Source: Escherichia phage FCWL1. From it: a stretch of 49,336 bases of DNA. A program made the position numbers and the translations under genes. The stretch lies in sequence record PP558327; one strand, given 5' to 3'. The notes beneath the pieces are model-generated. The model saw nothing but the letters and a program-made list of their open reading frames with translations, searched no databases and was not told where the DNA came from. Below, in pieces: positions 4,171 through 7,312 of the stretch. Within the stretch, counting starts at the first letter, position 1; the number at the start of each line of letters is the position of its first letter.

Positions 4171-4805
4171 AATTTGAATGTGTGCTTAGTAACGGATCTG
4201 GATTTAAGTACGGCAAAATCTACGAAGGCGCTCGCGTCAATTGCAACAGCTTCGTTATCACGGATGAGCGCGGTAGAAATGTTAACGTTGTCCGGCGTCA
4301 CGAATACCAGGAAATTTTCCTGCCGTACGGCAATAGTTCAAAATACATCTTCCATCGAATCGTTGATGGTGTTAAATTTAAAGACGTAATCGAAGCAATC
4401 AACCAACTTCATAATAAAGAGGTAAAATTTATGAAATTCGAATGTATCAGCGATAACACCAAAAAATTTACTGTTGGCAAAATTTACGATGTTCCCTCTG
4501 AGCACGCTAAGCACACGGCTGTAATTACCGACGACACGGGCCGCCACCGCATTGCAACCGTAACGCACAACGGTGAAGGTCTTCGCTGGAATAGCGGCGG
4601 CACTAAGTTCGCAACGTTCGGCAAGAAGCGCAAGCGCACTTTCTGCGTCAAGGGCAATGTTGCGGCGAACAAGACCCACAACGACAAGGCGTCACAAGTT
4701 GACCGCAAGCCAGCATTGAAGTTTGAAGAGAAAGCGGATTTATCCGGCCTGGCTGTTGCGCTTGTTCTCCTGGTAGCTTCGATTTCGCTGATGTTCATCA
4801 TGTAA
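4167..4805 (+). CDS. membrane-anchored protein with two tandem copies of a small repeat domain (KFEC...GKIY...ITDxxG)
   Basis: Internal duplication MKFECVLSNGSGFKYGKIYEG / MKFECISDNTKKFTVGKIYDV; C-terminal hydrophobic anchor LSGLAVALVLLVASISLMFIM. Confidence 0.55.
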   Translation: MKFECVLSNGSGFKYGKIYEGARVNCNSFVITDERGRNVNVVRRHEYQEIFLPYGNSSKYIFHRIVDGVKFKDVIEAINQLHNKEVKFMKFECISDNTKKFTVGKIYDVPSEHAKHTAVITDDTGRHRIATVTHNGEGLRWNSGGTKFATFGKKRKRTFCVKGNVAANKTHNDKASQVDRKPALKFEEKADLSGLAVALVLLVASISLMFIM

Positions 4806-4953
4806 TTTTAACGGGGAATCGGATCTGAACGGTTCCCCTTTCTTTTGGAGAAAACACTATGCCAGACTTTTCTAACTGGAATAACGAGCCGCCATCATTT
4901 CAGGAGTTGCTATTTTGCCTCCTGGCCCTGACATTATCTCTTAAGGGTGTTTT

Positions 4954-5172
4954 ATGGCTACTATCATAACCGCAGAAGATGCGGCGCGTGACGCAGTGGA
5001 AGGAATGCGCCCAAATACCTCCAGAATCGCCCACTACTACAAGTTTGAGGTGTCGGCAGTGCAATTGGTCCACGAAATTTTAAGGCTCCCACAAGTCGAT
5101 TCAGCGCGAGTAGTGACGTGCTTAAAAAATTATTTTTGCATCACTATTAAAACGAATAGCACGAATTGCTAA
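4954..5172 (+). CDS. hypothetical protein (72 aa), weak
   Basis: ORF without clear RBS; ends just before promoter cassette at 5157. Confidence 0.3.
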   Translation: MATIITAEDAARDAVEGMRPNTSRIAHYYKFEVSAVQLVHEILRLPQVDSARVVTCLKNYFCITIKTNSTNC

Positions 5173-5199
5173 AACTTGCTCAAGGGTATTTGATAGAAT
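5157..5199 (+). promoter_or_regulatory. promoter cassette (TAGCA-CGAAT-TGCTA, hairpin, TAGAAT)
   Basis: Perfect palindrome, 22-bp spacer, AAGGG/CCCTT hairpin, TAGAAT, CCAATCAGAGGAAT RBS. Confidence 0.55.
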
Positions 5200-5239
5200 G
5201 CCCTTCGTTGAGTTAAGCAACCAATCAGAGGAATAAATC

Positions 5240-5851
5240 ATGGATAAAATTACCATTTGGGGCCAGACTGTCAACCTGTTTCTAGGTACTCGCCGTGTGG
5301 CAATCTTTGACTTCGACGGAACGCTGAGTGACGGCTCAAAACGTCTTCACCTGCTACCGACAAAAGATTTGCACTTGACTGAAAGCTGGTCTGAGTTTAA
5401 CCGCGCGGCAATATTTGATAACCCAATCCAAAGCACGATCGACGTAATGAACTCCATGTATGCCGCTGGTTATCATGTGATAATTTTAACCGGGAGAAGC
5501 GATGAGGTGCGTTACGCATCTGAGTTATGGCTTAAGCATCACGGCGCAAGATATGATTACTTAGTCATGAGGCCGCATACCGACAACCGCAAAGACACGG
5601 TAATGAAAGAAGAGGCGGTGCGCGCGATCGGCGTTGATAACATTCTGGCAGCTTGGGATGACTCACCGCAAATTATTCCATTATTCCGATCGCTTGGAAT
5701 AACCACGTATGCCGTAGTTGACTATGGCGATAACGTTCACGATCATTTAAAATCTCACGGGGTGGATGAGGTTTGCAATCATGAACCATCTGAGCCGCTA
5801 CCGCCATTTGGCGATAAAATATGCATTAAGTGCAAGGAGTTATTGAAGTGA
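5240..5851 (+). CDS. HAD-superfamily phosphatase (polynucleotide 3'-phosphatase / nucleotidase-like)
   Basis: HAD motif I FDFDGTLSDG (DxDGT); 203 aa; adjacent to kinase gene. Confidence 0.6.
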   Translation: MDKITIWGQTVNLFLGTRRVAIFDFDGTLSDGSKRLHLLPTKDLHLTESWSEFNRAAIFDNPIQSTIDVMNSMYAAGYHVIILTGRSDEVRYASELWLKHHGARYDYLVMRPHTDNRKDTVMKEEAVRAIGVDNILAAWDDSPQIIPLFRSLGITTYAVVDYGDNVHDHLKSHGVDEVCNHEPSEPLPPFGDKICIKCKELLK

Positions 5852-5958
5852 ACCTGTACGAATTTATTGCAGCACATCCTGTATTGACGGTTATCATCCT
5901 GTTAATCATCAATCACACTATCATCAATGTGGCAAAATTATTTTTAGGGAGATACTAA
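5848..5958 (+). CDS. possible small membrane peptide (36 aa)
   Basis: GTG start 8 nt after strong AAGGAG SD, GTGA overlap with phosphatase stop; hydrophobic core PVLTVIILLIINHTIINV. Confidence 0.3.
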   Translation: MNLYEFIAAHPVLTVIILLIINHTIINVAKLFLGRY

Positions 5959-5959
5959 C

Positions 5960-6532
5960 ATGAAAACAGCTATCATTTTAAACGGCGCACCTGGAGCGGG
6001 AAAAGACACTATCGGATGCATCCTTGCTGACACTTACGATCACGTAGCCTTGCGCAGCTTCAAAGCGCCAATGTTTGAGATTGCCAGGGCAATCCTGGGT
6101 GAAGCTAACTACGAGTATTTCATGTTCTTGTATGAGGACCGTCGATATAAAGAAGAGCCAGCATCAATCCTGAACGGTAAAAGCCCGCGCCAGTTTATGA
6201 TCTGGATTAGCGAGGAAGTCATCAAGCCGCAGTTCGGAAATCGCTTCTTCGGTATGCGAGCGGAAAGCAAGGTGAAAGAGTCGCACTCCCTTTCGGTATT
6301 TACTGATGGTGGATTCAAAGACGAAATCTTGCAGATGATTGAAGGTGATATCCAGGTCAAGCTATGTCGAATACATCGCAACGGTTGCAGCTTTGATAAC
6401 GACAGCCGCGACTATATCTATCTTGACGACATGATCGGGGTTAACGGTTATCAGGAATGTGACTTCTTTTCTGTCGAAGGTCATCCAGAAATTACCGCTC
6501 AGCACATAGCCGCCACGTTCATCAATAAATAG
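5960..6532 (+). CDS. P-loop nucleotide kinase (dNMP kinase-like)
   Basis: Walker A GAPGAGKDT at N-terminus; NGKSP motif; 190 aa. Confidence 0.55.
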   Translation: MKTAIILNGAPGAGKDTIGCILADTYDHVALRSFKAPMFEIARAILGEANYEYFMFLYEDRRYKEEPASILNGKSPRQFMIWISEEVIKPQFGNRFFGMRAESKVKESHSLSVFTDGGFKDEILQMIEGDIQVKLCRIHRNGCSFDNDSRDYIYLDDMIGVNGYQECDFFSVEGHPEITAQHIAATFINK

Positions 6533-6742
6533 ATGACGGTATCAACTGATAAGTTTTTCACTTGCACTAAAACTTCTGAAGTATTCGAACTGGTTCATAC
6601 TGATAATGGTGATTTCATGCATGACGGTTGCGACGTTTTCATTGAAGTGAAAGAAAGCGACTATGACGACGGAGTTTATTACAGCCCGGCAGTTAACACG
6701 CAGTTTTTTACCCCGATCGAGGAAGATGGAGAAGAGGCATGA
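6533..6742 (+). CDS. hypothetical acidic protein (69 aa)
   Basis: ORF abutting kinase stop. Confidence 0.4.
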   Translation: MTVSTDKFFTCTKTSEVFELVHTDNGDFMHDGCDVFIEVKESDYDDGVYYSPAVNTQFFTPIEEDGEEA

Positions 6743-7098
6743 TTACGATTAACCTGTCAGAGAAGCAAGCTCGTGAAATCCTGGACACGATCGGCGACCA
6801 GTTACACATCAAGGGCGCTACCGCCGAACTTCTTAACCAGATCGAAAGGCAGCTTACCCCAGCATCAACGAATCAAGCTGAGTTCGCAGCATGGAAGAGT
6901 GAACGCATCTTGCCAAATATCATCAAGGCATGGAAGCGCAAGCATAAAAAAGAAATCAACGTTGAGGATTTGTTTACCGACGAATTAAGCCCTTCAAAGG
7001 TTGCTCAATATCAGTTGCGATACATGGAATCAGTTTGCAATCAGGTTTTAGGTGTTAATTTTCATTTTGGAGAGGTAAATAATGTTCGGATTAAGTGA
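6739..7098 (+). CDS. hypothetical protein (119 aa)
   Basis: ATGA overlap with upstream gene. Confidence 0.5.
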   Translation: MITINLSEKQAREILDTIGDQLHIKGATAELLNQIERQLTPASTNQAEFAAWKSERILPNIIKAWKRKHKKEINVEDLFTDELSPSKVAQYQLRYMESVCNQVLGVNFHFGEVNNVRIK

Positions 7099-7312
7099 AG
7101 CGGAATGGAACGTGGTAAAGCGCGCGGCGAAGGAATTAAATAAATTCGTCAGTGGCATGAAGAAAGAAGATCGGAAAAACGACAAGATCATGATTGACGT
7201 TATTTCTACTCACCACAAAAAGGTCGAATTACTCATCGATCGCTACAAATTTGTCTGGACTGCCGGGTATATTGCCGGGCGCGTAGGTAACAAAGAAGGG
7301 GATTACGAATAA
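7082..7312 (+). CDS. hypothetical protein (76 aa)
   Basis: ORF with RBS GGAGAGG. Confidence 0.45.
   Translation: MFGLSEAEWNVVKRAAKELNKFVSGMKKEDRKNDKIMIDVISTHHKKVELLIDRYKFVWTAGYIAGRVGNKEGDYE

What the first reader, a model, noticed from the sequence alone, without database searches (positions are those of the whole stretch)
5240..6532. HAD phosphatase plus P-loop kinase gene pair with an SD-driven 36-aa membrane peptide wedged between them
A HAD phosphatase (DxDGT motif FDFDGTLSDG) and a P-loop kinase (GAPGAGKDT; NGKSP) sit side by side. Together they resemble the two halves of polynucleotide kinase/3'-phosphatase (RNA/DNA end healing, known to counter anticodon-nuclease defences) or a dNMP kinase plus nucleotidase pair. 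No ligase is evident in the window, so end healing would need a host ligase. Between them a GTG-initiated 36-aa hydrophobic ORF (5848-5958) has the strongest SD in the region (AAGGAG).
Basis: partly seen in the sequence, partly recalled or inferred. Interest (0 to 1): 0.45.

Follow-up and report, generated by a model that had tools for sequence, protein, structure and literature searches.

The report
T1 phage phosphatase–peptide–dNMP kinase cassette
This is the conserved early-gene trio of T1-like phages: a kinase-less Pnkp-type phosphatase, a real 36-residue membrane peptide and a T4-gp1-type dNMP kinase, which fits nucleotide salvage better than RNA/DNA end repair and is largely already annotated.

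Summary
The window is a Tunavirus (T1-like) genome, 99.9% identical over the 1.8-kb query to phage phiD2-2.

The HAD protein is a true Pnkp-family phosphatase with all catalytic residues but no kinase domain, so the GenBank label "polynucleotide kinase" is a misnomer. The P-loop protein is not a PNK-type kinase. It belongs to the T4 gp1 / phage DNK dNMP-kinase family by PHROG match, sequence motifs and fold. A 46%-identical Drexlerviridae homologue appears to be the DNK reported to trigger the Kongming defence.

The 36-aa ORF is a real gene: it is intact in 55 phage records, has pN/pS 0.08, and its start always overlaps the HAD stop.

The two enzymes are linked. They are adjacent in four phage families and fused, HAD then kinase, in two metagenomic proteins. 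The HAD family is also related, more weakly, to T5 Dmp, a 5'-deoxynucleotidase.

Best reading: a nucleotide-salvage module for a phage that recycles host DNA. The HAD substrate (3'-phosphate ends or nucleotides versus 5'-dNMPs) remains untested. Split-PNKP end healing is unlikely but not excluded.

The parts
5158..5215 (+). Promoter-like repeat just upstream of the cassette. It has the conserved 18-mer AGCACGAATTGCTAAAAC, then a short inverted repeat (AAGGG...CCCTT) that encloses TGATAGAAT.
   Evidence: The window holds 8 copies of the 18-mer at up to 3 mismatches, against 0.06 expected. Six have the same downstream architecture followed by an RBS and ATG. Promoter function is inferred, not shown.
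5227..5232 (+). Shine-Dalgarno-like AGAGGA, 7 nt before the HAD ATG.
   Evidence: Read from the sequence.
5240..5851 (+). Stand-alone Pnkp-family HAD (DxDxT) phosphatase, 203 aa. The core is residues 1-177 and carries D24, D26, R35, T84, R86, D119, K123, D140 and D141. There is no kinase domain.
5771..5848 (+). Variable C-terminal tail of the HAD protein (residues 178-203) with a CxH...CxxC pattern, possibly a small zinc knuckle.
   Evidence: The pattern occurs in 10 of 48 aligned homologues. It is absent from the T1 protein, which is 176 aa. The model confidence here is modest: about 45 for residues 161-180 and 70-79 for 181-203. Zinc binding is inferred from the pattern only.
5834..5839 (+). 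AAGGAG Shine-Dalgarno site for the small ORF, lying inside the HAD tail codons.
   Evidence: Read from the sequence. Alleles without the HAD tail lack this site but start the small ORF with an ATGA overlap instead.
5848..5958 (+). Protein-coding gene for a 36-aa hydrophobic peptide (MNLYEFIAAHPVLTVIILLIINHTIINVAKLFLGRY). It is translationally coupled to the HAD gene through a GTGA overlap.
   Evidence: The ORF is intact in 55 phage records at 90% or higher amino-acid identity. Across 14 alleles, variable sites fall 6/2/15 by codon position and pN/pS is 0.08. The start is always ATG or GTG and always overlaps the HAD stop. GRAVY is 1.25. It is annotated in LeonhardEuler as bas13_0075. It has no PHROG match, and only a sub-threshold Pfam DUF7859 match at E 0.14.
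5947..5951 (+). GGGAG Shine-Dalgarno site of the kinase gene, lying inside the 3' end of the small ORF.
   Evidence: Read from the sequence.
5960..6532 (+). dNMP kinase of the T4 gp1 / phage DNK family, 190 aa. The P-loop is G-A-G-K15-D16-T17. Other invariant residues include R77, S84, E85, K89, D116, G118, F119, E122, D148, S149 and R150.

Best explanation
The three genes form one co-translated early cassette of T1-like phages, and the cassette serves deoxynucleotide supply.

**Shown**
- The downstream enzyme belongs to the gp1/DNK dNMP-kinase family. Such enzymes convert 5'-dNMPs to dNDPs, which host NDK then converts to dNTPs.
- The upstream enzyme is a catalytically intact Pnkp-clade HAD phosphatase that has no kinase domain.
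- The two are a linked pair. Their stop and start codons overlap in many phages, they are adjacent in four phage families, and they are fused (HAD then kinase) in at least one 60-kb phage contig.
- The 36-aa ORF between them is a lineage-restricted gene under purifying selection.

**Inferred**
- T1 degrades the host chromosome and reuses its nucleotides. The phosphatase probably removes 3'-phosphates from DNA breakdown products: 3'-phosphorylated ends, 3'-dNMPs or 3',5'-bisphosphates. Those products can then end up as 5'-dNMPs for the kinase.
- Sequential steps of one pathway would explain both the coupling and the fusions without creating a futile cycle.
- The peptide is a small membrane protein of unknown role. 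It occupies a variable slot that holds an HNH endonuclease in T1 itself.
For: **Kinase family**
- PHROG match.
- Homology to gp1 beyond the P-loop, against P-loop-only similarity to T4 Pnkp.
- A family member gives a sub-threshold Pfam hit to phosphomevalonate kinase.
- Homologues sit in nucleotide-metabolism clusters: next to an NT5C-like gene in a cluster with ThyX and RNR, close to RNR genes, and next to an NT5C-like gene (Pfam) in a cluster with thymidylate synthase and an NTP reductase (annotation).

**Literature**
- bioRxiv 10.1101/2024.12.20.629578 reports that a phage DNK (R1DNK, catalytic K15) phosphorylates dAMP, dGMP, dCMP and dTMP.
- It also reports that DNKs including that of the Drexlerviridae phage KarlJaspers trigger the Kongming defence.
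- The KarlJaspers P-loop protein is 46% identical to the window's protein.
- PMC11447400 and PMC13164509 annotate the pair as PNK plus dNMP kinase. PMC13164509 proposes that the pair enhances nucleotide supply. PMC11447400 states that T1 and TLS degrade host DNA and reuse the nucleotides.

**HAD assignment:**

**Linkage**
- 60 of 80 IMG/VR loci with a kinase homologue carry the HAD gene within 3 kb upstream. In 29 of them the stop and start overlap.
- The pair also occurs in Kagunavirus and Ahphunavirus and in locus L089.
- Fusion proteins P0222 and P0241 exist. P0222 is found on 3 contigs, one of 60.8 kb.

**Small ORF:**
Against: - No enzyme from this window has been assayed.
- The 3'-phosphatase specificity is inferred from family membership. 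Yet the same HAD family aligns over its whole core (92% probability) with T5 Dmp, a 5'-dNMP phosphatase. Clade membership therefore does not fix which phosphate is removed.
- Kinase homologues in other phages lie next to DNA or RNA ligases and metallophosphoesterases. That is what an end-healing cassette would look like.
- The assignment of the KarlJaspers DNK to bas06_0076 is my inference. I could not establish what phage Rao1 is.
- Deleting dnk had no apparent fitness cost in Rao1 under the authors' conditions, so salvage may not be the selected function.
Confidence: 0.55

Rival explanations
1. Dmp-like reading. The HAD protein is a 5'-deoxynucleotidase that works alongside the dNMP kinase. 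It would trim or sanitise particular dNMPs (for example dAMP, dIMP or dUMP), shape the pools, and possibly blunt DNK-sensing immunity such as Kongming, as T5 Dmp does.
For: - The HAD family aligns with the T5 Dmp family over 146 columns (92% probability, E 6e-7), with every catalytic motif matched.
- The Dmp Pfam family PF26880 is recorded on one Drexlerviridae HAD homologue, P0115.
- In Vequintavirus-type phages the kinase homologue overlaps an NT5C-type deoxynucleotidase gene, so co-expressed kinase and nucleotidase pairs do exist.
- The Kongming preprint reports that Dmp counters DNK-triggered immunity and that Dmps co-occur with DNKs.
Against: - The HAD family is clearly closer to T4 Pnkp: 97.5% probability, E 9e-12, with a shared D-x-R-K-D-x-V-x-K-E-E motif that Dmp lacks.
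- Its structural neighbours are Pnkp1 and T4 Pnkp.
- Translational coupling or fusion of a 5'-dNMPase with a dNMP kinase would set up a futile cycle unless their specificities differ.
- T5 separates the two enzymes in time.
- The preprint says DNK-encoding phages are generally Kongming-sensitive, with T5-like phages as the notable exception.
Confidence: 0.2
2. Split-PNKP reading. The HAD protein removes 3'-phosphates and the P-loop protein phosphorylates 5'-OH ends of broken RNA or DNA. A host ligase then reseals the molecule, which would counter nicking or anticodon-nuclease defences.
For: - The HAD protein is a genuine Pnkp-clade phosphatase.
- The HAD-kinase fusions reproduce a bifunctional phosphatase-plus-kinase polypeptide.
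- Kinase homologues abut ATP-dependent DNA ligases (L054, L080), a ligase-like gene (L095) and an Rnl2-type RNA ligase (L088). They also follow metallophosphoesterases.
Against: - The kinase shares only the P-loop with T4 Pnkp.
- Its relatives (gp1, adenylate kinases, phosphomevalonate kinase) all phosphorylate a phosphate group, not a hydroxyl.
- By the spacing after the P-loop, no acidic residue sits where T4 Pnk has its general base D35; the window has K35 there (the role of D35 is from my own knowledge).
- Family members are reported to be active dNMP kinases.
- There is no ligase in the window.
- E. coli RtcB joins 3'-P and 5'-OH ends directly, so healing would not help that route (own knowledge).
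Confidence: 0.12
3. The 36-aa ORF is not a gene. It would be an intergenic spacer that carries the kinase's ribosome-binding site and happens to be open.
For: - The ORF is short and has no PHROG match, only a sub-threshold Pfam match.
- The kinase's GGGAG site lies within it.
- T1 itself lacks it.
- In most other Drexlerviridae the HAD and kinase genes overlap directly or are separated by other genes.
Against: - Fifteen of 23 variable sites fall at third codon positions, and pN/pS is 0.08.
- A start codon that overlaps the HAD stop is kept in two different junction contexts, ATGA and GTGA.
- The ORF is intact in 55 records.
- A diverged amino-acid homologue exists in a phage whose kinase is only 57% identical (L028).
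Confidence: 0.05

Closest known systems
T4 polynucleotide kinase-phosphatase (PseT/Pnkp), C-terminal 3'-phosphatase domain; also Pnkp1 of the bacterial Pnkp1-Rnl-Hen1 RNA repair complex (PDB 4xrp)
   Different: The window's polypeptide has no 5'-kinase domain. It carries about 15 extra residues after motif I (RLHLLPTKDLHLTESWSEFN) and, in this phage, a Cys/His tail. Its partner kinase belongs to a different family and is encoded downstream rather than fused at the N-terminus. There is no RNA ligase partner.
T4 gp1 deoxynucleoside monophosphate kinase (PDB 1dek) and the phage DNKs studied as Kongming triggers (bioRxiv 10.1101/2024.12.20.629578)
   Same: They share the GKD(T) P-loop, the DR and LNGKSP motifs, the best structural match, PHROG 139, and lengths of about 190 to 240 aa. 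The window's protein is 46% identical to the KarlJaspers protein.
   Different: Identity to gp1 itself is only about 13%. The gp1 'DTRQ' segment is replaced by an invariant 'DGGF..E'. Substrate range is untested for this protein.
T5 Dmp, deoxynucleoside-5'-monophosphatase (Pfam PF26880), an anti-Kongming factor
   Same: It is a HAD phosphatase that aligns across the whole core with all motifs matched, and it is encoded by phages that also carry a DNK.
   Different: The relationship is weaker than that to T4 Pnkp. Dmp lacks the RKDxVxKEE motif. In T5 it is encoded far from dnk and expressed earlier. Its substrate is the 5'-phosphate.
Stand-alone DNA 3'-phosphatases of eukaryotes: yeast Tpp1 and plant ZDP, the latter with zinc fingers (own knowledge; not tested here)
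   Same: They are Pnkp-type HAD phosphatases without a kinase domain. ZDP combines the phosphatase with zinc fingers, loosely like the Cys/His tail here.
   Different: They are eukaryotic DNA-repair enzymes and are not paired with a dNMP kinase. No sequence comparison was run.

Membership tests
HAD (DxDxT) phosphatase superfamily | Motif I DxDxT, with nucleophile and acid/base aspartates. | tested here: met
   F-D24-F-D26-G-T28 is invariant across 48 homologues and aligns to T4 D165 and D167. The roles of these residues are described in PMC3592404.
HAD (DxDxT) phosphatase superfamily | Motif II Ser/Thr, motif III Lys and motif IV DD (Mg2+ binding). | tested here: met
   T84, K123 and D140-D141 align to T4 S211, K258 and D277-D278.
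Pnkp-type polynucleotide 3'-phosphatase domain (Pfam PF25109) | Score above Pfam's gathering threshold. | tested here: met
   62.4 bits against a cutoff of 27.6. Acid_phosphat_B also scrapes past its own cutoff, at 28.5 against 27.
Pnkp-type polynucleotide 3'-phosphatase domain (Pfam PF25109) | Closest fold is a solved Pnkp phosphatase domain. | tested here: met
Pnkp-type polynucleotide 3'-phosphatase domain (Pfam PF25109) | Equivalents of the T4 essential residues R176, R213 and D254 (the list is from my own knowledge of the Shuman-lab mutagenesis). | tested here: met
   R35, R86 and D119 are invariant. This does not discriminate, because the T5 Dmp family keeps the same positions (R33, R88, D136).
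Pnkp-type polynucleotide 3'-phosphatase domain (Pfam PF25109) | Hydrolyses 3'-phosphate (or 2',3'-cyclic phosphate) ends of nucleic acids. | not testable with these tools
   This needs an enzyme assay.
Bifunctional polynucleotide kinase-phosphatase (T4 PseT type), the label this gene carries in GenBank | A 5'-OH polynucleotide kinase domain in the same protein. | tested here: not met
   The 203-aa protein aligns only to PseT residues 151-298. It matches phrog_505 only over positions 160-290 of 295.
Bifunctional polynucleotide kinase-phosphatase (T4 PseT type), read as a split enzyme | The neighbouring kinase is homologous to the Pnk kinase domain beyond the P-loop. | tested here: not met
Phage dNMP kinase (T4 gp1 / DNK, PHROG 139) | Profile match to the family. 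| tested here: met
   phrog_139: E 4.7e-46 over residues 1-187. No Pfam or NCBIfam model reaches its cutoff.
Phage dNMP kinase (T4 gp1 / DNK, PHROG 139) | Sequence homology to T4 gp1 beyond the P-loop, and the G-K-D P-loop variant. | tested here: met
   hhalign covers 73 columns at 87% probability, E 3.7e-6, with shared SGKDT/AGKDT, DR and LNGKSP motifs. K15, D16 and T17 are invariant or nearly so. The probability is moderate, not decisive.
Phage dNMP kinase (T4 gp1 / DNK, PHROG 139) | NMP-kinase fold with gp1 as the nearest solved structure. | tested here: met
Phage dNMP kinase (T4 gp1 / DNK, PHROG 139) | ATP-dependent phosphorylation of 5'-dNMPs to dNDPs. | not testable with these tools
   The activity is reported for R1DNK, and the Kongming-trigger phenotype is reported for the KarlJaspers DNK. 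The KarlJaspers P-loop protein is 46% identical to the window's. That it is the DNK tested is my inference.
T5 Dmp 5'-deoxynucleotidase family (PF26880) | Profile-level membership. | tested here: inconclusive
   hhalign of A4 against A5 gives 92% probability and E 6e-7 over 146 columns. This is weaker than the match to T4 Pnkp (97.5%, E 9e-12). PF26880 is not in the local Pfam copy, and is recorded on only one of the 120 listed homologues.
Small phage membrane protein | One hydrophobic span long enough to cross a membrane. | tested here: met
   Residues of about 11-33 form the hydrophobic stretch, and the best 19-residue Kyte-Doolittle window scores 2.2. This rests on hydropathy only, and membrane location is not shown.

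The most novel reading that the evidence does not exclude
The HAD phosphatase and the dNMP kinase may be a physically coupled two-enzyme unit; they are covalently fused in some phages. One possibility is that the unit channels 3'-phosphorylated DNA breakdown products straight into dNDPs. Another is that the Dmp-related phosphatase acts as a built-in safeguard. It would destroy dAMP or dIMP so that the phage's own DNK does not set off DNK-sensing immunity such as Kongming. The conserved 36-aa peptide might tether or regulate the pair at the membrane.
Probability: 0.2. Interest if true: 0.55.

Novelty: new member of a known kind. Interest (0 to 1): 0.3.

Why it matters
- **Annotation.** Hundreds of Drexlerviridae records label this HAD gene 'polynucleotide kinase' or '3'-phosphatase, 5'-polynucleotide kinase', although it has no kinase domain. 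Any inference about RNA repair or anti-PrrC function drawn from that label is unsafe.
- **Biology.** The kinase belongs to a family now reported to be sensed by a bacterial defence (Kongming). Its constant partner is a phosphatase related both to T4 Pnkp and to the anti-Kongming enzyme T5 Dmp. This gives a specific, testable question: what does the phosphatase do to the nucleotide pool in phages that recycle host DNA?
- **Scope.** None of this overturns current views.

Tried and rejected
- **PDB sequence searches with the kinase.** Single-sequence and profile searches found only P-loop matches. The family had to be assigned through fold search and hhalign.
- **Pfam and NCBIfam for the kinase.** Nothing reached a cutoff.
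- **Retron Eco2 paper.** It looked like a possible link between Drexlerviridae and PNK. It only says Drexlerviridae are not restricted, and it uses T4 PNK as a reagent.
- **Phage Rao1.** I tried to establish what it is and how close R1DNK is to this kinase. It is unclassified in the taxonomy and appeared in none of the BLAST rows listed.
- **NT5C relationship.** The window's HAD family shows no similarity to the NT5C-type neighbour of the Vequintavirus DNK, so the two HAD partners are different subfamilies.
- **Sigma-70 promoter and terminator scan of 4700-7200.** Hits were no more frequent than in shuffled sequence. No plus-strand terminator falls inside the cassette; the one plus-strand terminator-like site is at 4813-4838, upstream.
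- **Fusions as assembly artefacts.** I considered whether the HAD-kinase fusions were frameshift artefacts at the ATGA overlap. This was rejected because two divergent fusions carry 60-110-residue linkers, and one recurs on three contigs.
- **Structure job.** It was rerun without that row.
Full report
**What the window is.** The 1.8-kb region around the finding is 99.9% identical to Escherichia phage phiD2-2. It is 92-99% identical to dozens of other Tunavirus (T1-like, Drexlerviridae) genomes. The window is roughly the size of a complete genome of this type. In these genomes the finding lies in the left-hand block of small early genes, upstream of the terminase genes.

**Check of the observation.** The three ORFs are exactly as described.
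- The HAD ORF is 5240-5851 (203 aa), with FDFDGTLSDG at residues 23-32.
- The GTG ORF is 5848-5958 (36 aa).
- The P-loop ORF is 5960-6532 (190 aa), with GAPGAGKDT and NGKSP.
- AAGGAG lies at 5834-5839, 8 nt before the GTG.
- The GTG overlaps the HAD stop codon (GTGA).
- The small ORF ends 1 nt before the kinase ATG, and the kinase's GGGAG site lies inside it.
- No ligase was found. tblastn with five ligases gave nothing at E<=1, and none is annotated in the related phage LeonhardEuler.

**The HAD protein.**
- It matches Pfam HAD_PNKP (PF25109) at 62.4 bits against a cutoff of 27.6, and phrog_415 at 1e-67.
- BLASTP against T4 PseT aligns residues 16-159 with PseT 157-296 at 25% identity and E 1e-8.
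- A 48-sequence profile gives 97.5% probability and E 9e-12, including a nearly identical D-x-R-K-D-x-V-x-K-E-E segment.
- The T4 residues D165, D167, S211, K258 and D278 have roles described in PMC3592404. They correspond to D24, D26, T84, K123 and D141.
- R176, R213, D254 and D277 are essential in T4 to my knowledge. They correspond to R35, R86, D119 and D140. All are invariant or nearly so.
- The protein has no kinase domain. It aligns only to the C-terminal half of PseT, and it matches phrog_505 only over positions 160-290 of 295.
- The widespread GenBank names 'polynucleotide kinase' and '3'-phosphatase, 5'-polynucleotide kinase' are therefore misnomers.
- Residues 178-203 form a tail with a CxH...CxxC pattern. 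The pattern is found in 10 of 48 homologues and is absent from T1's 176-aa protein.

**The P-loop protein.** No Pfam or NCBIfam model reaches threshold, and PDB sequence searches find only P-loops. Four lines place it in the dNMP-kinase family.
- It matches phrog_139, 'deoxynucleoside monophosphate kinase', at 4.7e-46.
- A 42-sequence profile aligns to T4 gp1 over 73 columns (87% probability). The shared motifs are GKDT, DR and, notably, LNGKSP. Against T4 Pnkp only 25 P-loop columns align.
- Its nearest relatives all transfer phosphate to a phosphate group, not to a hydroxyl. By the spacing after the P-loop, the window has K35 where T4 Pnk has its general base D35 (the role of D35 is from my own knowledge).

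The family is large: 5,026 representative clusters at E<=1e-3 and 1,428 phage records.

**Literature.**
- Two genome papers on T1-like phages already call the pair PNK and dNMP kinase. PMC13164509 proposes that the pair enhances nucleotide supply. PMC11447400 notes that T1 and TLS degrade the host chromosome and reuse its nucleotides.
- A preprint (bioRxiv 10.1101/2024.12.20.629578) shows that phage dNMP kinases (DNKs) trigger the Kongming defence. R1DNK, with catalytic K15, phosphorylates dAMP, dGMP, dCMP and dTMP.
[quoted passage not shown] T5 Dmp, a 5'-dNMP phosphatase with catalytic D22, counteracts it.
- KarlJaspers is a Drexlerviridae phage. In the 13.5-kb stretch I examined, its only annotated P-loop NTPase (bas06_0076) is 46% identical over the full length to the window's protein.
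- Equating that gene with the tested DNK is my inference. I could not establish what Rao1 is.

**Are the two enzymes linked? Yes.**
- Of 80 IMG/VR loci with a kinase homologue, 60 have the HAD gene within 3 kb upstream on the same strand. In 29 the stop and start overlap, 9 have the 108-nt slot, 3 hold an HNH gene or its remnant, and 19 have 0.7-1.8 kb of other small genes in between.
- The pair recurs outside Drexlerviridae. It occurs in Kagunavirus (metallophosphoesterase, HAD, kinase, all overlapping) and in Ahphunavirus of the Autographiviridae (metallophosphoesterase-like, HAD, kinase). It also occurs in a 31-kb contig, L089.
- Two divergent metagenomic proteins fuse an N-terminal HAD_PNKP domain to a C-terminal kinase of this family: P0222 (403 aa) and P0241 (461 aa). 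P0222 is on three contigs, one of them a 60.8-kb phage contig.
- The domain order in the fusions matches the gene order in the window. It is the reverse of T4 Pnkp.

**What the contexts say about function.** The evidence is mixed.
- *Nucleotide metabolism:* kinase homologues lie next to an NT5C-type deoxynucleotidase in clusters that also hold ThyX or thymidylate synthase and ribonucleotide reductase, close to RNR genes, or next to PhoH.
- *End processing:* other homologues directly precede ATP-dependent DNA ligases (L054/72/77, L080). Others follow a ligase-like gene (L095) or an Rnl2-type RNA ligase (L088), or sit beside 5'-3' exonucleases.
- Phage DNA-metabolism modules mix these functions, so adjacency alone does not decide the matter.

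**A complication for the HAD substrate.**
- T5 Dmp has no hit in the local Pfam copy and none in the PDB.
- Even so, a profile of its family aligns with the window's HAD family over the whole core: 146 columns, 92% probability, E 6e-7. DxDGT, the following (H)R, T-x-R, the Asp-Lys pair and DD all match.
- The Dmp family PF26880 is also recorded on one Drexlerviridae homologue.
- The 'Pnkp-specific' arginines and aspartate are thus shared with an enzyme that removes 5'-phosphates from mononucleotides. Family membership does not fix which phosphate is removed.
- The window's protein is nonetheless clearly closer to T4 Pnkp than to Dmp. It is unrelated to the NT5C-type partner.

**The small ORF.**
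- It is intact in 55 phage records, all Escherichia or Shigella Tunavirus, at 90% or higher amino-acid identity.
- Among 14 distinct alleles, variable sites fall 6/2/15 by codon position and pooled pN/pS is 0.08.
- The start is ATG where the HAD gene lacks the tail (ATGA overlap) and mostly GTG where it has the tail (GTGA overlap; one tail allele has ATG). It always overlaps the HAD stop.
- A diverged homologue lies in the same slot of a phage whose kinase is only 57% identical. In that one assembly it is frameshifted.
- The peptide is hydrophobic (GRAVY 1.25). It has no PHROG match and only a sub-threshold Pfam match.
- In T1 itself the slot, together with the HAD tail, is replaced by a 164-aa HNH endonuclease gene. 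vB_SsoS_008 carries a remnant of both.
- It is a real, lineage-restricted gene of unknown function.

**Conclusion.**
- The cassette is best read as a nucleotide-salvage module: a dNMP kinase and a Pnkp-clade phosphatase acting in one pathway. The phosphatase most likely removes 3'-phosphates from DNA breakdown products upstream of the kinase. That is a sequential arrangement, which would explain the coupling and the fusions without a futile cycle.
- The family assignments and the linkage are shown. The substrate and the pathway are inferred. I put 0.55 on this reading.
- The rivals are a Dmp-like 5'-deoxynucleotidase partner, possibly relevant to Kongming (0.2), and a split end-healing enzyme (0.12).
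- The finding is largely already annotated in the literature, so interest is modest.
- The points worth carrying forward are the misnomer, the cross-family HAD-DNK linkage with natural fusions, and the Pnkp-Dmp relationship.

Noticed in passing
window 1126, 2217, 2779, 3505, 5158, 34004, 39078 (+) and 46008 (-): A repeated intergenic 18-mer, AGCACGAATTGCTAAAAC, occurs 8 times against 0.06 expected. In most copies it is followed about 20 nt later by TGnTATAGT, TAGAAT or TATAAT set inside a short inverted repeat, and then by an AGAGGAA RBS and ATG. It looks like a phage-specific early promoter or regulatory element. Its translation (…NSTNC*) recurs at ORF ends across Drexlerviridae loci.
   Followed up: partly
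window 6532/6533; compare L001 5534-5605 and L002 3554-3625: Relatives (phiD2-2, LeonhardEuler) have a 72-nt spacer after the kinase gene that carries another copy of the repeated element. The window lacks it, so the kinase stop TAG directly abuts the next ATG.
   Followed up: partly
L017 2504-2998 and L021 2504-2998 (T1-type phages); remnant in L044 2780-3004: In T1-type genomes a 164-aa HNH endonuclease gene sits between the HAD and kinase genes. It replaces the 36-aa ORF and the HAD Cys/His tail. This suggests that the slot is a homing-endonuclease insertion site.
   Followed up: partly
window 5771-5848 (HAD residues 178-203): The C-terminal CxH...CxxC tail, possibly a zinc knuckle, is present in only a subset of homologues and is duplicated in P0137. 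Its function is unknown.
   Followed up: partly
L002 1689-2177 (LeonhardEuler bas13_0073) and L003 1731-2177; window about 5173-5239: Many Tunaviruses carry an extra 489-nt (or 447-nt) gene just upstream of the HAD gene. It is absent from the window.
   Followed up: no
L054 1792-4520, L080 1694-4832, L171 1389-3555, L172 1482-3645: In unrelated phage families the kinase homologue follows a calcineurin-like metallophosphoesterase. It is joined either by the HAD phosphatase (Kagunavirus, Ahphunavirus) or by an ATP-dependent DNA ligase (L054, L080). This may be a recurrent nuclease/phosphoesterase-phosphatase-kinase(-ligase) module.
   Followed up: partly
L176 6001-7212 (P0222); P0241: Natural fusion proteins join an N-terminal HAD_PNKP domain to a C-terminal gp1-type kinase through a 60-110-residue linker. 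P0222 lies on a 60.8-kb phage contig with RdgC, NinH and Dam-type methyltransferase genes.
   Followed up: partly
L175 124-858 (T5 dmp): T5 Dmp, which has no hit in the local Pfam copy or in the PDB, is a DxDGT HAD phosphatase (D22, D24). At profile level it is related to the Pnkp-type phosphatases.
   Followed up: partly
L028 2890-2995 (same contig as L111): The diverged homologue of the 36-aa ORF in this phage is split across two reading frames. This is either a sequencing error or a real frameshift.
   Followed up: no
L030-L049, between the HAD and kinase genes (e.g. L030 2234-2452, L045 2314-2499): Other Drexlerviridae carry a different conserved small membrane protein of about 61-74 aa in the HAD-kinase interval (…LYVCG.FLMRALLKEAD..DKD…W). 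The interval seems to be a hotspot for small membrane-protein genes.
   Followed up: no
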